Source: Negaprion brevirostris
Taxonomy: Eukaryota
Direction of reading: 5' to 3'
NCBI GenBank assembly: GCA_030324005.1
Contig: JARDVH010000025.1
Span: 74,705,949-74,769,948, forward strand
Length of the DNA stretch: 64,000 bases
In this document: piece after piece, positions 32,701 to 38,700 of the stretch
Layout of the letters: every line of letters starts with the position of its first letter
Position numbering within the stretch: position 1 is the stretch's first letter
Made by a program: the position numbers

Positions 32701-35700
32701 ATTTCTGGTGTTGTCCACGCTGAATGTCATAACAGGAGGAGTGTTGATGCAGATGTCGATGGGCCAGCTGCTTGAAGTATACATAATATGCAGCTTATCA
32801 ATCAGTGTATAATTTTGACTTGATGCCAGTGCTGCTATTTTGGAGCTCAAAACTCCAGCTGACATCATCCCTGAAACAAGCACAGCTGGACACATGTTTA
32901 GCAGCAGGAAGGGTCCCCTAATCCTACACTATTTAAAGGGAGCATCATGTCAGCTGACTGTTACTTACTGGCTCTTGCTATGATTTTGTAAAATCATTTG
33001 TGTTTTAATAGAAATGTAGAAAGATTTGTGGCACAGAACGAGATCATTAGAAGAATTCTTTACGATTGCTAAAGTTTACAGGAAGTCATACGGCAGGTGT
33101 CCTTGTCCAAAGTTCAAGGATTCTGCAGAAACCACTTGCTCCTCGCCATTGGGATATGGCAGCAGGAGGATAGACTCTCCCTAGACAGCAGTGTGACGGA
33201 GAGAAGAAGCAAAGATGACATGGAACAGGACCAACTGCTGGAAGAGGAAGGAAGAGGAGATCGACATGTGCTCTCAGTCAAAAGCCGTATCTACACAGGG
33301 TGTTTAGTGAGCAGTTTTCCTTCCTAAACTTTAACAACAGCTTACTAATTTAGTAAAACATCCCATGGCACTATACAGTCATTATGAAACACAATTTATC
33401 ACTGAGTAGCATTGGAGATTCAGATGGCCTAAGGTTCCTAAAATTAGATTTTAAGGAGCTTCCTAAAGGGAGAACAGAGACATGGTCACCAATGGTGAGG
33501 TCAATGAATTTGAAGATACTGACGAGACTGGAATTAGCAGTGTGCATCAATTTTAAGGATGGAGGGGATTACAAGATATGAAGGGGCAAGCCCTGAAGGA
33601 AATTGAAAACAAGGATGAAAATTTTAAAATTGAGACATTGCATAACCTGGGGCGACTGTAGGCTAACAAGCATAGGCTGGATGCCTGAGCGGGAACTAGC
33701 AAGTTAGGTCACAGGCAGCAGAATTTTGAATGACCTCAAGTTTGCAGAAGGTAGAACAAGGGAGACCAGCCAGAAATGTATTTGAATAGTCAAGTGACTG
33801 ATGGATGGGAGTTTCAGCAGCACCAGGAGAAAAGGACGAAGGTGGGGACCATTATAGAGTGGAAATATGTGGTCTTAGTGATGGTGTAGATGTATTGTTG
33901 AAAGTTCACCTCATGATTAAATAATACACCAAGACTACAAACAGTTTGATTCAGCCTCCTCAAGACAGTTGCGTGGGATAGGGATGGAGTTGCTAACAAC
34001 GGAATTAAGTTTGTGACATGAATCAAGATAGTGGGCATGATCTTACAAAATAAATTCAAAGGGCTGAATGAGCGAGAAAATGGGAAAGAGTGTTGCTGAT
34101 TTTTTTTCAGCAAGCTGCAAGTCACAATCTTACAGCATTCAATGCAAAAAAAGAGCCTTGTTCTATTATTCATGTGGAGGGTGGGGAGGGGAAGCTTGAG
34201 CTCGCCGGTGAAGTCAGGTGCAGAGTGTTTAGAGCACCATTGCACAGGCGCCCTGATCTCCCAGTGTAATGGAAGATCTCCTGCCATCCCTCCTCACTCC
34301 TCCTTGGACATTACTGTACCCCCCACTGATTGCTCCCTGTGCCAGTCCCTCAACCCTAGCCTGCCGATCACTCTCTGTGCCAACTCTAATCATGACATTA
34401 ATGGTTAAATCGACACAAAGCCGATCACACTAGAAAAACAGGGCAAGGAAGATGAGATCAGTTTGCGCCTGCTGCAAAAGCCTCATGTTATCTTCGACCA
34501 CGCAGCAGGCTGGAATAAACGCACCCAGTGACCGGTTTTCCCAATGTTTAGTTGGAGGAAATTTCTGCTCATTTAATTCTGGTGTTTGAACCAGCAGGCT
34601 GACAAGTTAAAGACAGCAGAGGGGTCAAAAGTGGTCAACCATGNNNNNNNNNNGAGGGTGAGGTAGAGCTGTGTAGTGTCAGCAGACATATGACAACTGA
34701 CACTGTGTTTTCTATTCATGTTGCCAAGTGACAGCATGTTAGTGAAAAACAGGACGGACTAAGAATAGAATCCTTAGGGAACACCAGAGGTATCATTGAG
34801 GGTGAGCAAATAGAAGCCATTTTAGGTAATTCTCTGGCTACAAGTGAACAGATAAGAATTGAACCACACAACTGCAGTTCCACCCAGTTAGACGGACAGA
34901 CCCAGTGGAGAGACTTTGGAGTGGTATTTTGTGGTTAATGTGCCAAAGGCAGCAGTACATTGTGAGGGATACCATGACTGCCCCTGACAGGCTATACAAA
35001 ACCTACCTGCCTGTAGATTCAAAAGCCAACCTGGAGAAGTTGTCTTCACCTCCACCCTCACCCCTCCAGGTGGCCTGGCCGCTTTTTGCATTTTTTATTA
35101 AAAGTTTTTTTAAAAGTGGCTATTGAGGGGCCGTCCCACCCAGAAAGGAAGAAAGCAAACTTGGGAAATCTTTGGTCTCACCCATCGACTCTGTCCACAC
35201 TACCCCGCTGCCTCAGAAAAGCAGCCAGCATAATCAAGGACCCCACACACCCCAGAAACTTTCTCTTCCACCTTCTTCCATCAGGAAAAAGGTACAAACA
35301 TCTGTGATCATGTACCNNNNNNNNNNNNNNNNNNNNNNNNNNNNNNNNNNNNNNNNNNNNNNNNNNNNNNNNNNNNNNNNNNNNNNNNNNNNNNNNNNNN
35401 NNNNNNNNNNNNNNNNGGCAAGATAGAAAAAGTGAATGAAGAAAGTAGCAGCTGTGCAAGCCTTTGTTCCTGGTGTTACAGCTGAAGCCACAATGAACCA
35501 TATATCAGCTACCAGCAGATTTACTGCTATATTCAGAATTCCAACATGGCGAGTATATGAAGTCTTATTTTTGGTCACATGTTTCCACACCATGGTCTCT
35601 ATGATAATAATAATTAATAAACATCCTATTGATATGGCAACTCCAACTGTGGTTATATACTCCAAAGCTGGATCGTCTATGGAATCAGGAGACATTAAAA

Positions 35701-38700
35701 TAGAAAAGGATGTCAAGTGATCACAGTTACATGTGATATTTTCCCCATTAATTTCAGGCGTACAGCCAGTGTTATTCCAAGTGCCATTGCCACTAAAGTC
35801 CCAAAATGCACACATGGCCGTGTTGAGATCAAGCATGTGATTTCTTGGTGAGAAGGTCAAGCTGATGTTAACAGGTTTCATAATGTTTAATGTGATTGTC
35901 ATAACAAGACCATTAATCAAAAAGTCTCCATCGAAGGTTGTAGTATTGGGTAAAATATCAATCAATGTTGGATATGCAATGGTGATAACTGTGGCATTTG
36001 ATGTATCTTCAAATTCTTCAGAGGAAAGGAATACACTTGCACTTAAATTGGAATATTCTCCGGTTGAGATGTTAACAAAGGGCTCGATAATAGAACAGTT
36101 CCTGTTATGACCATCAATTCTAGCAGCTCTGAATTCAAGATTATCTTCTTTGAACTGCAAACAGTAAATCTGCTGATTGAGGCGTTGATTAAACTTTTCC
36201 ACCGCCTGTAATAATTGAGAACTAGAGCTGGAATTATTTTCAGTTCGTGTGTTTGTGAGAATTTTCCAACTATCTATTGATTCAAAAGAGATAACTCTGC
36301 TTACAGTTTTCAAGAAATTCTGAAAAACACAAAGCCCAAATTGATCAAATATTCAATTTCAGATTCACAGAAAATCAAACATTTTTAGCATCAGAAAATA
36401 GTCTTGAACTAAGAAAATTAGAAAATAACATGCAGGGAAATAAACAGCTGGTCCACTGTGCCTATCTCACACTTATGAACTCTGGAGAAACATTACTACC
36501 AAACTTTCCCTGTGCAGCCATATAAACCTCCTGAAAAGTCAAAGGAATCCAGAACCAGCAGAGTAAAATCANNNNNNNNNNCTGGAAAGGTTCCCTTTGA
36601 ACCCCTCAGATGATCAAAACAAGCCCAACTGGTCATATTGACCATATGTACATTAACTGTAAATCCACCAACCTTTGATGCAATTCAACTTTGCCCTGAC
36701 TAATTGATTTTACTATTTCCTATTGGAGTTTGCAGAGCATCAGCACACACTTCTCAAGCCAGCAATACATTCCAGCTAGTACTCCTTGAATAAAGAACCA
36801 TCTAACACCTGGACCATTCCTACTTCTGCTTGGTTTAACTGTATGTCTCTCTGATATTACCTCAATATGTCAAGTTGCAATGTTTATCAATAGGCACACA
36901 CTCCAACTCTTATTGTTTCATATACATTGGCATAAGAAATAGGAGCTGGAGTGAACATTTAGTCCTCTGAGTTTGCTCCGCCATTCTATATAATTATGGT
37001 TGATCTTCTGCCACAAATCTTTGTTATCCTCATTGTTGGGGAAAGGAAAATTATTCTAGTAGGTTAGGGAAGATTTTAAACTATTAGATATTTAAGACAA
37101 TAACAGAACTTTGAGTTCAAAGACTTTAAGTCAGACTTATAAGCTTACAAGAGAAAAGTTTACACACATAGAACATAGAATCCAACAGTGCAGAAACAGA
37201 TCCTTCGGCCCATCGAGTCTACACCGACCACAATCCCACCCAGGCCCTATCCCCATTTCCCTACACATTTACCCTCTAATCCCTCTAACCTACACATCCC
37301 AGGACACTAAGGGGCAATTTTAGCATGGCCAATTAACCTAACCTGCACATCTTTAGACTGTGGGAGGAAACCGGAGCACCCAGAGGAAACCCACACAGAC
37401 ACAAGGAGAATGTGCAAACTTCACAAAGACAGTGTGGAGCTGGGAATTAAACCCAGGTCACTGGAGCTGTGAAGCAGCAGTGCTAACCACTGTGCTACCA
37501 TGCCGCCCCAACTGCGACCTTTGTCGCAGTTAGATAGCATGTAGTTTTTTTATCTTAGTAAGAGCCATTTCATTACTTTGGTGGGAATTGGAAAATGATT
37601 GGAGGGATGCAACCAGGAAGCTCCAAGACAAATGGGCATGGATTTGGGAGGCAACAGGAGAGGAAAGGGAGTTTGGAAATGGGATGGTAGCTGGCAAGAA
37701 TGGAGGGAATGGGTGGTGATGGCAGATTGATGGTGAGAGGAACAGTATTCAGATAAGAAATCTGTTTCCAATATCAGCTAATACAGGAGCTTTATAGAAA
37801 CAAGGTCCAGAGAGCCAGAAGTGGATTTCATTGTGAACTTGAGATCAGGGAGGATATGAAGGAGATAGAAAAGAATCAAGAGAAAGATGTGAGTTTTGGG
37901 GTTGAGGTGTGAGGAACCTCAGGTGAAGTTAGTTTGTTCCATTGGATTAGGAGAAGAGAGGCAAGTAACTGACCTTATGAACAGATGGTCGCCTACTTTG
38001 TGACACGTGCATGAGCTGTTCACACTTATTATTGGAAGTGAGGTAGAATGCGCCATGTAGCGTGGTTTAAGAAAAACATTCATCGCGGAGTAGAGAAGCT
38101 GACTGTTCTGTTTGCTTGGAGAAACTTTGAATAGCGGGCAGTTTTAGGGATGGAGTTACACTTTGTGATCCAGAGAGATAAAACAGTTGTCCACAACAGA
38201 CAGTCAAATCTGCATTCCTTAGACTTTAGGAATCAAAGTTGGAGGTGTACATCAAGGAATGACTAGAGTGAGTGAGAGTTATGATTTTAGTGGGGCCAAG
38301 ATAATGTAGAGGATGACAGCAAATCAGTAGCTGCAGAAATGTCCTGATGGATTGTAGGCCAAAGACTAGATAGTTGGGAATTGAAAGTGAGCCTCAGAGC
38401 AGAGAGTAGGATGGCATTGCCAAAGTTGGTGAAGAAGGTTGTGATTGTAAATATTTATCCAGACTGGAGCAGGTGGGTAATGGCAACATCTCCCAGTTCA
38501 CAACCCATTGTTGCACAAGAGAAGTTACTGAAGCTCTGCATCATAAGAGAGCTGACATACGCTCCATTTTCTCTTGCCAGAGAGAAGCAGGCAGAGCCTA
38601 GAGGACCCACTGTTGAATTGCACTATCTTGGCTTGGGCAGCAGGTCAGTGCTGGCTCGTAGCATGAATACTGCTGGAGTGGCAGTGGTTGAATACTGCTG

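What the first reader, a model, noticed from the sequence alone, without database searches (positions are those of the whole stretch)
35417..36319. Adhesion GPCR (ADGRF) nested antisense inside DNMT3A intron 20
Seen: 903 bp of uninterrupted minus-strand coding sequence with a canonical acceptor, encoding GAIN, GPS and TM1-3 of an ADGRF receptor. It lies between DNMT3A exons at 31056-31141 and 56243-56312. Known: human DNMT3A has no such nested receptor to my knowledge. Inference: an ORF this long and intact among heavily decayed repeats suggests a live gene. A cell-surface receptor transcribed head-on through the catalytic-domain introns of the de novo methyltransferase could couple the two genes by transcriptional interference, or influence DNMT3A exon 20-21 splicing.
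Basis: partly seen in the sequence, partly recalled or inferred. Interest (0 to 1): 0.85.

Follow-up and report, generated by a model that had tools for sequence, protein, structure and literature searches.

The report
Gap-bounded shark ADGRF exon inside DNMT3A
A real, well-conserved piece of a shark adhesion-receptor gene sits between two DNMT3A exons in this scaffold, but it is a single half-exon cut off by assembly gaps, so a live receptor gene nested inside DNMT3A is not shown.

Summary
The open frame exists. Window 35417-36319 (minus strand) is 301 stop-free codons behind a canonical acceptor. It encodes part of a GAIN domain, a complete GPS motif with H-L|T, TM1, TM2 and half of TM3 of an ADGRF-type adhesion GPCR. 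It lies between DNMT3A-type plus-strand exons at 31056-31141 and 56243-56312.

- The frame does not end naturally. It runs into a 100-N run at 35317-35416, and a 10-N run lies 252 bp upstream of the acceptor.
- No other ADGRF coding sequence is in the 64 kb, although the missing parts are 65-93% conserved among relatives.
- The break falls where family members are about 98% alike, and sharks carry several tandem paralogs.

The exon looks constrained. It departs from 1 of 70 otherwise invariant columns and is sister to a full-length Mustelus gene. ADGRF-like genes and DNMT3A share a chromosome in 16 of 16 cartilaginous fishes where both were listed.

Most likely this is a genuine exon on a small contig whose position in the intron is unverified. 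A truly nested gene remains possible, at about 0.2. Interest is low.

The parts
35417..36319 (-). Partial coding exon of an ADGRF-type adhesion GPCR (301 codons, P0001). The 3' end is cut by an N run.
36320..36321 (-). Splice acceptor AG, preceded by a pyrimidine tract (tttgtgtttttcag).
   Evidence: tblastn matches of relatives start at 36319-36328.
35930..36319 (-). Part of the GAIN domain (residues 1-130; Pfam profile positions 51-186 of 210).
35696..35815 (-). GPS motif (residues 169-208) with C170, W173, W181, C186, C197, C199 and H201-L202|T203. The predicted cleavage point lies between 35714 and 35713, followed by the tethered-agonist stretch TSFSILM.
   Evidence: and the alignment to ADGRF1.
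35417..35668 (-). Start of the 7TM domain: TM1, TM2 and the first half of TM3 (residues 218-301; profile positions 3-90 of 250).
35317..35416 (.). 100-N run that cuts the exon. The sequence beyond it (35316 downwards) has no ADGRF similarity.
36572..36581 (.). 10-N run 252 bp upstream of the acceptor.
40764..40863 (.). The next 100-N run. Together with 35317-35416 it bounds a 5.3-kb piece that holds no DNMT3A exon.
13191..13349 (+). DNMT3A exon (borders taken from the tblastn match only).
19501..19590 (+). DNMT3A exon carrying the GGSPCNDLS catalytic-loop motif.
29432..29580 (+). DNMT3A exon. It is 100% identical to shark DNMT3A and scores 96.5 bits against DNMT3A versus 82.9 against DNMT3B in solved structures.
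31056..31141 (+). DNMT3A exon on the 5' side of the 25.1-kb intron.
56243..56312 (+). DNMT3A exon on the 3' side of the 25.1-kb intron.

Best explanation
The 903 bp are a genuine exon fragment of a shark ADGRF-type adhesion GPCR. The gene belongs to a family that is tandemly multiplied in sharks, and this copy is the likely ortholog of the Mustelus asterias 'F2-like' gene.

From the family one infers a receptor that cleaves itself at H-L|T inside the GAIN/GPS domain and is activated by the exposed tethered agonist (TSFSILM...).

In this window the gene is represented only by a small, gap-bounded contig that breaks off in TM3. Its position and orientation inside the DNMT3A intron most likely come from scaffolding a short multi-copy-family contig. 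It may come from the ADGRF cluster on the same chromosome, perhaps close by. An established nested gene is the less likely source.

Shown: the identity of the exon, its truncation by N runs, the absence of all other exons, and the same-chromosome linkage in other species. Inferred: the misplacement.
For: - The exon ends in a 100-N run, and a 10-N run lies 252 bp upstream. The window has 22 N runs in 64 kb.
- All 33 cartilaginous-fish ADGRF queries hit only this exon (E 1e-140 to 1e-73). The 5 other matches have E 0.23-0.97.
- The search had power to find more. The 208 residues before the exon are 65-77% identical among relatives and the 182 residues after it are 82-93% identical. A 24-residue DNMT3A exon was found at E 1e-9 by the same method.
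- The break falls in the 20-residue stretch where 12 family members are 98% alike pairwise. Only one other stretch, at 0.99, is more conserved. Short-read assemblies of paralog families tend to break at such places.
- Paralogs within one species are 89-93% identical: 4 in Mustelus and 2 in Cetorhinus, each set on one chromosome.
- In Chiloscyllium plagiosum the same exon is annotated as a partial protein on a lone 1719-bp contig.
- The four pieces that hold DNMT3A exons are collinear, but the 5.3-kb piece with the receptor exon has no DNMT3A exon to anchor it.
- This intron is 25.1 kb with 9 N runs. The three upstream introns are 6.1, 9.8 and 1.5 kb.
Against: - ADGRF-like genes and DNMT3A lie on contigs of identical length, hence the same chromosome, in 16 of 16 cartilaginous-fish species where both were listed. 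A position near DNMT3A is therefore plausible, and scaffolders usually place contigs near their true neighbours.
- The true size of the N run is unknown. The rest of the exon could lie in it.
- Shark introns are long, so the upstream exons could lie beyond the window's end, more than 27.7 kb away.
- No read, long-read or other-species genome data could be consulted, so misplacement is inferred and not observed.
- The conservation profile is at protein level only, which is a proxy for DNA similarity among paralogs.
Confidence: 0.5

Rival explanations
1. True antisense nesting or overlap. A complete, live ADGRF-like gene runs on the minus strand through the 3' part of DNMT3A. Its large GAIN-7TM exon lies in the 25-kb intron, the rest of that exon is hidden in the N run, and its 5' exons lie beyond the window.
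For: - This is the scaffold as given.
- The exon looks constrained: it departs from 1 of 70 otherwise invariant columns, against 0-5 for annotated relatives.
- All GPS residues are intact.
- Its terminal branch is 0.15, against 0.099 for its Mustelus sister.
- ADGRF-like genes and DNMT3A share a chromosome in 16 of 16 species.
Against: - No upstream exon lies in the 27.7 kb upstream, and no TM3-TM7 sequence lies in the 35 kb downstream.
- The exon is bounded by N runs.
- The constraint signal would look the same if the contig came from elsewhere.
- Three paper searches found no report of such an arrangement.
Confidence: 0.22
2. A real but dead fragment. A recent segmental copy of part of an ADGRF gene (some intron plus half an exon) was inserted in, or left behind in, the DNMT3A intron and broken off in TM3. 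An intact parent gene exists elsewhere.
For: - Only a partial exon is present.
- Beyond the N run the sequence is unrelated to ADGRF.
- If the 100 N stand for exactly 100 masked bases, the frame could continue for at most 33 codons before the unrelated sequence begins.
- A young copy would still look constrained.
Against: - There is no stop or frameshift in 312 codons.
- The ends of the supposed fragment cannot be seen because N runs cover them.
- No target-site duplication or transposon border was found.
- Self-comparison of 34654-40763 shows no second copy of the island in the window.
Confidence: 0.18
3. A chance open frame, or a frame derived from a transposon.
For: None.
Against: - Three Pfam domains appear in the correct order.
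- The frame is 80% identical to a full-length shark receptor.
- About 1e-5 open frames of this length are expected by chance.
Confidence: 0.01

Closest known systems
Mustelus asterias 'adhesion G-protein coupled receptor F2-like' (P0002, 892 aa, NCBI name as listed)
   Same: 80% identity over all 301 residues. It is the sister of the window sequence in the tree (SH-aLRT 94). It has the same GPS and tethered-agonist sequence.
   Different: P0002 is full length, with 385 residues before and 206 after the part matched. The window has only the middle piece. Its position relative to DNMT3A in Mustelus is known only to the level of the chromosome (contig length 148,774,877 for both).
ADGRF1 / GPR110 (solved structures 7wu3, 7wxu and others)
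   Same: E 2.5e-42. The alignment runs from the GAIN domain through H-L|T-SFSILMSP to the start of TM3. The receptor would therefore work the same way, by GAIN autoproteolysis and tethered agonism (known for the family; see the titles and abstracts of PMC9046087 and PMC10148833 in the listing).
   Different: The match is far more distant than to the shark relatives. No one-to-one orthology to any human ADGRF was tested. NCBI names of the shark relatives vary (F1-, F2-, F4-, F5-like), which shows the naming is automatic.
Nested genes in vertebrate introns (general class; recalled, no call)
   Same: In the scaffold, a minus-strand coding exon lies inside an intron of a plus-strand host gene.
   Different: A nested gene lies entirely within the host intron. 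Here one partial exon is present and the rest is absent from the window.
Linkage of human ADGRF3 (GPR113) and DNMT3A on 2p23.3 (recalled from memory, not confirmed)
   Same: This would match the same-chromosome linkage seen in 16 of 16 cartilaginous fishes.
   Different: As recalled, the human genes are about a megabase apart and not nested. A search for papers with both 'GPR113' and '2p23' found 0, so this remains only a lead.

Membership tests
Adhesion GPCR (class B2) | GAIN domain immediately before the 7TM domain | tested here: met
   Pfam GAIN E 1.1e-07, residues 1-130, above the curated cut-off. Only profile positions 51-186 of 210 are covered, so the domain is incomplete at the exon start.
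Adhesion GPCR (class B2) | GPS motif with conserved Cys and Trp residues and the H-L|T(S) cleavage triad | tested here: met
   Pfam GPS E 7.3e-13. C170, W173, W181, C186, C197, C199 and H201-L202-T203 are present and align to ADGRF1.
Adhesion GPCR (class B2) | Complete seven-helix secretin-type domain | tested here: not met
   Only 7tm_2 profile positions 3-90 of 250 are present (TM1, TM2, half of TM3). No TM3-TM7 sequence is found anywhere in the window, although that part is 82-93% conserved in relatives. The failure applies to the window, not necessarily to the gene in the animal.
ADGRF subfamily | Closest similarity to ADGRF members rather than to other adhesion GPCR subfamilies | tested here: met
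   ADGRF1 scores 148 bits, against 57 bits for the next subfamily (ADGRD1) among solved structures. Every named hit in the first 34 rows is ADGRF-like, apart from one row named 'hypothetical protein' and one unnamed row.
ADGRF subfamily | N-terminal SEA and other extracellular domains, as in full-length relatives (PF01390, PF25387) | tested here: not met
   Relatives carry them. No such coding sequence is in the window.
Nested gene within DNMT3A | The whole transcription unit lies within one host intron | tested here: not met
   One partial exon only. 33 of 33 queries hit nothing else.
Nested gene within DNMT3A | Uninterrupted sequence linking the guest exon to the host exons | tested here: not met
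   N runs at 31370, 34644 and 35317 lie between the exon and DNMT3A exon 31056-31141. N runs at 36572, 40764, 42270, 44504, 50051 and 51367 lie between it and exon 56243-56312.
Live (selected, expressed) gene | Purifying selection on the coding sequence | tested here: met
   The exon departs from 1 of 70 columns that are invariant in the other 28 cartilaginous-fish sequences, and the change is conservative (I to L). The range in the others is 0-5. There is no stop in 312 codons. dN/dS could not be computed because no DNA of relatives was available.
Live (selected, expressed) gene | Transcription and splicing at the acceptor | not testable with these tools
   No RNA data were available. The 'near' search found no same-species protein or transcript (best hit 68% identity).
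DNMT3A (host gene) | Catalytic-domain exons in order on one strand, closer to DNMT3A than to DNMT3B | tested here: met
   Five collinear plus-strand exons match residues of about 703-883 of a 969-residue shark DNMT3A. One exon scores 96.5 bits against DNMT3A and 82.9 against DNMT3B.

The most novel reading that the evidence does not exclude
In a carcharhiniform-type shark, a live member of the expanded ADGRF-like receptor cluster really runs antisense through the 3' catalytic-domain introns of DNMT3A. Its large GAIN-7TM exon would lie in the 25-kb intron, so the two genes are transcribed head-on and could interfere with one another.
Probability: 0.2. Interest if true: 0.4.

Novelty: new member of a known kind. 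Interest (0 to 1): 0.2.

Why it matters
If the placement were real, it would be a lineage-specific case of a receptor gene overlapping the de novo methyltransferase gene head-on. That could be tested for transcriptional interference. Nested and overlapping genes are common in large vertebrate introns, though, so even then it would be a modest curiosity.

As it stands, the finding mainly shows two things:
- Sharks carry a tandemly expanded ADGRF-like family on the DNMT3A chromosome.
- A long open frame on a gap-bounded contig of a fragmented assembly should not be read as a nested gene without checking for the remaining exons.

Tried and rejected
- **Pfam scans of open frames.** I scanned the first 150 of 378 plus-strand frames of at least 40 aa (window 1-23972), then 141 frames of at least 55 aa on both strands of the intron 31142-56242 (142 were listed; the ADGRF frame itself was left out), and 8 further frames. 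None gave a family above its cut-off. The only hit was one sub-threshold zf-met. One search also showed that frames containing known DNMT3A exons get no Pfam hit. These scans therefore have little power for short exons and say only that no long recognisable domain lies there. The remaining 228 plus-strand frames and most minus-strand frames outside the intron were not scanned.
- **Accession numbers as a proxy for gene order** (listing of cluster members). The distance between the ADGRF cluster and DNMT3A in other sharks stayed unchecked.
- **Paper searches.** 'adhesion GPCR/ADGRF/shark' (233 papers held at least 2 of the 3 terms, 15 listed), 'GPR113/DNMT3A/synteny' (127 held at least 2 of the 3 terms, 15 listed) and 'GPR113'+'2p23' (0 papers). 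I saw listings and abstract starts only. None deals with an ADGRF gene in DNMT3A or with the shark expansion.
- **Is the sequence left of the N run a LINE tail?** I recalled a shark LINE-like motif in the frame 35017-35304(+). There was no second copy in the window and no usable Atlas hit (scores up to 0.81). This remains unverified.
- **Inferring the true size of the N runs** from repeat copies that span them. 0 of 22 runs had collinear hits on both sides, so it cannot be told whether the 100-N runs are gaps of unknown size or masks of 100 bases.
- **Self-comparison of 34654-40763**. It showed only interspersed repeats outside the island and nothing that bears on placement.
- **Searches without a joined model.** Exons were searched one at a time.
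- **Closed collections.** No shark genomic context could be fetched.
- **Source organism.** The window is taken for shark, not human. A human UniRef entry listed was not fetched or used.
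Full report
**What is there.**
- On the minus strand, window 36319 to 35417 reads as 301 codons without a stop.
- The frame is open from 36352. At 312 codons it is the longest N-free open frame in the window. The next longest is 202 codons, and about 1e-5 frames of this length are expected by chance.
- It is preceded by a pyrimidine tract and the acceptor cag|AAT.
- Pfam finds part of a GAIN domain (residues 1-130, profile positions 51-186 of 210, E 1.1e-07), a full GPS motif (169-208, E 7.3e-13) and the first third of a secretin-type 7TM domain (218-301, profile positions 3-90 of 250, E 4e-05).
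- Among solved structures the best match is ADGRF1 (7wu3_R, E 2.5e-42, 148 bits). The next subfamily, ADGRD1, scores 57 bits.
- The GPS cysteines and tryptophans, the H201-L202|T203 cleavage triad and the tethered-agonist stretch TSFSILM are all present.

- The 903 bp do not stop at an exon end. They run straight into a 100-N run at 35317-35416.
- A 10-N run at 36572-36581 lies 252 bp upstream of the acceptor, and the next 100-N run is at 40764-40863.
- The window has 22 N runs in all.
- The receptor piece therefore sits on a 1155-bp island, or on a 5.3-kb piece if the 10-N run is a small, supported gap.
- TM3 is only begun and the GAIN domain lacks its first part.
- In a partial Chiloscyllium plagiosum relative (another species) the coding sequence continues past the point where the window's exon is cut. 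In the full-length Mustelus relative 206 more residues follow.

**The host gene.**
- Five plus-strand exons match residues of about 703-883 of a 969-residue cartilaginous-fish DNMT3A, in order: about 13191-13349, 19501-19590, 29432-29580, 31056-31141 and 56243-56312.
- The exon 29434-29580 scores 96.5 bits against DNMT3A and 82.9 against DNMT3B chains. It is 100% identical to DNMT3A of many sharks and rays.
- The last 86 or so residues of DNMT3A are not in the window.
- The intron that holds the receptor piece is 25.1 kb with nine N runs. The three introns before it are 6.1, 9.8 and 1.5 kb.
- Exons were searched one by one.

**Is there a gene here?**
- I ran 33 cartilaginous-fish ADGRF-like proteins (P0002-P0034) against the window with tblastn. 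All 33 hit this exon (E 1e-140 to 1e-73). The only other matches were five with E 0.23-0.97, which is noise.
- The method had the power to find more. The 208 residues just upstream of the exon are 65-77% identical among family members, even across orders, and the 182 residues downstream are 82-93% identical.
- The same method found a 24-residue DNMT3A exon at E about 1e-9.
- So the 27.7 kb upstream and the 35 kb downstream hold no other ADGRF coding sequence outside N runs.
- A complete gene here would need the whole remainder of the 7TM domain to lie in the N run at 35317-35416, and all 5' exons to lie beyond the window.

**What kind of gene the exon comes from.**
- The best hits are shark proteins: 80% to Mustelus asterias 'F2-like' (892 aa), 78% to Cetorhinus, and 71-76% to the Scyliorhinus proteins. 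Bony vertebrates fall to about 43-45%.
- Several paralogs per species lie on one chromosome: four in Mustelus and two in Cetorhinus. They are 89-93% identical to each other over this region.
- A tree of 34 sequences follows the species groups. It puts the window's sequence as sister to the Mustelus F2-like protein (SH-aLRT 94) inside a clade with the other Mustelus paralogs. Its terminal branch is 0.15, against 0.099 for its sister.
- The source is thus probably a non-scyliorhinid carcharhiniform shark, and the exon the ortholog of a full-length, annotated gene.
- The exon departs from only 1 of 70 columns that are invariant in the other 28 cartilaginous-fish sequences, a conservative I-to-L change. 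Annotated relatives depart from 0-5 such columns.
- With a terminal branch of 0.15 over 301 sites (about 45 changes), a neutral copy would be expected to hit roughly ten of those columns. That expectation is my arithmetic and does not come from a call.
- The exon has therefore been under constraint for most of its separate history. This argues for a live gene somewhere in the genome. It does not say where, and a young dead copy would look the same.

**Why I think the position is unproven and probably an assembly product.**
- The cut in the exon falls in the 20-residue stretch where 12 galeomorph family members are 98% alike pairwise. It is the second most conserved stretch of the whole region. 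Assemblies of multi-copy families typically break at such places.
- The same exon in Chiloscyllium plagiosum is annotated as a partial protein on a lone 1719-bp contig. This exon therefore ends up on small orphan contigs in another shark assembly as well.
- The four pieces of the scaffold that carry DNMT3A exons are collinear, but the piece with the receptor exon carries nothing that anchors it.
- Whether the 100-N runs are gaps of unknown size or masks could not be determined. 0 of 22 runs had informative repeat copies on both sides. Under either reading the exon is not continued by the sequence beyond the run.

**What speaks for a true position near DNMT3A.**
This holds for 16 of 16 species: Mustelus asterias, Cetorhinus maximus, Scyliorhinus torazame, S. 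canicula, Carcharodon carcharias, Stegostoma tigrinum, Chiloscyllium plagiosum, Hemiscyllium ocellatum, Heterodontus francisci, Pristis pectinata, Heptranchias perlo, Hypanus sabinus, Mobula hypostoma, M. birostris, Narcine bancroftii and Amblyraja radiata.
- Three further species had only one of the two listed: Rhincodon and Hemitrygon had ADGRF only, and Leucoraja had DNMT3A only.
- These species share ancestry, so this is one conserved linkage and not 16 independent events. It also says nothing about distance.
- I recall that human ADGRF3 and DNMT3A both lie on 2p23.3 about a megabase apart. I could not confirm this (one search found 0 papers).
- A local misplacement from a neighbouring cluster, or a true overlap, therefore both remain possible.

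**Mechanism.**
- By homology, the protein encoded by the full gene would be an adhesion GPCR. It would cleave itself between L202 and T203 within the GAIN/GPS domain and signal when the tethered agonist (TSFSILM...) engages the 7TM bundle, as shown for ADGRF1. The family mechanism is taken from the titles and abstracts of PMC9046087 and PMC10148833 as listed, and otherwise from general knowledge.

**Verdict.**
- My estimates: a position that is an assembly product or otherwise unverified, 0.5; true nesting or overlap, about 0.2; a real truncated fragment, about 0.2.
- In novelty terms it is one more member of a known, shark-expanded ADGRF-like family. Interest is low unless the placement is confirmed.
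- Three searches found no paper describing an ADGRF gene inside DNMT3A (listings only).

Noticed in passing
window 31141-31157 (+): A second GT donor lies 15 bases downstream of the exon end at 31141. It would add the residues LVKE, exactly as in the Mustelus asterias DNMT3A isoform X10 (P0158...[15 protein letters not shown]...). A near-identical insert (LVKA) is in the Cetorhinus isoform. This is probably a conserved alternative 5' splice site in shark DNMT3A.
   Followed up: partly
window 37169-37509; copies at 45800-46135, 58396-58590, 32163-32351, 55229-55330: An interspersed repeat of about 340 bp (SINE-sized) is present in at least five copies, 77-84% identical, in both orientations in the DNMT3A introns.
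   Followed up: no
window 7681, 12705, 17926, 23014, 28960, 31370, 35317, 40764, 60997: The nine 100-N runs are spaced rather evenly in the first 41 kb: 5.0, 5.2, 5.1, 5.9, 2.4, 3.9 and 5.4 kb apart. The other N runs have sizes of 10, 21, 48, 121, 129, 199, 236, 300 and 410. Two kinds of join (or masking) seem to be mixed. Their nature could not be determined.
   Followed up: partly
(other species): The shark and ray ADGRF-like family is multiplied in tandem, with up to four listed paralogs per species on one chromosome, and it always lies on the DNMT3A chromosome (16 of 16 species). NCBI names for these proteins vary between F1-, F2-, F4- and F5-like, so the names do not reflect orthology.
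   Followed up: partly
window 40663-40763 (+), 40873-41112 (-) and 41493-41822 (-): Open frames here look, from recall, like decayed LINE reverse-transcriptase or tail fragments on both sides of the 100-N run at 40764. Pfam gave no hit, so this is unverified.
   Followed up: partly
window 9576-10181 (-): This is the second-longest open frame of the window (202 codons), inside a DNMT3A intron. It has no Pfam family at E up to 0.01. It was not examined further.
   Followed up: partly
window 56313-64000: The last DNMT3A exons (about 86 residues) are absent from the 7.7 kb after exon 56243-56312. The next intron is therefore longer than 7.7 kb, or the exons fall in N runs.
   Followed up: no
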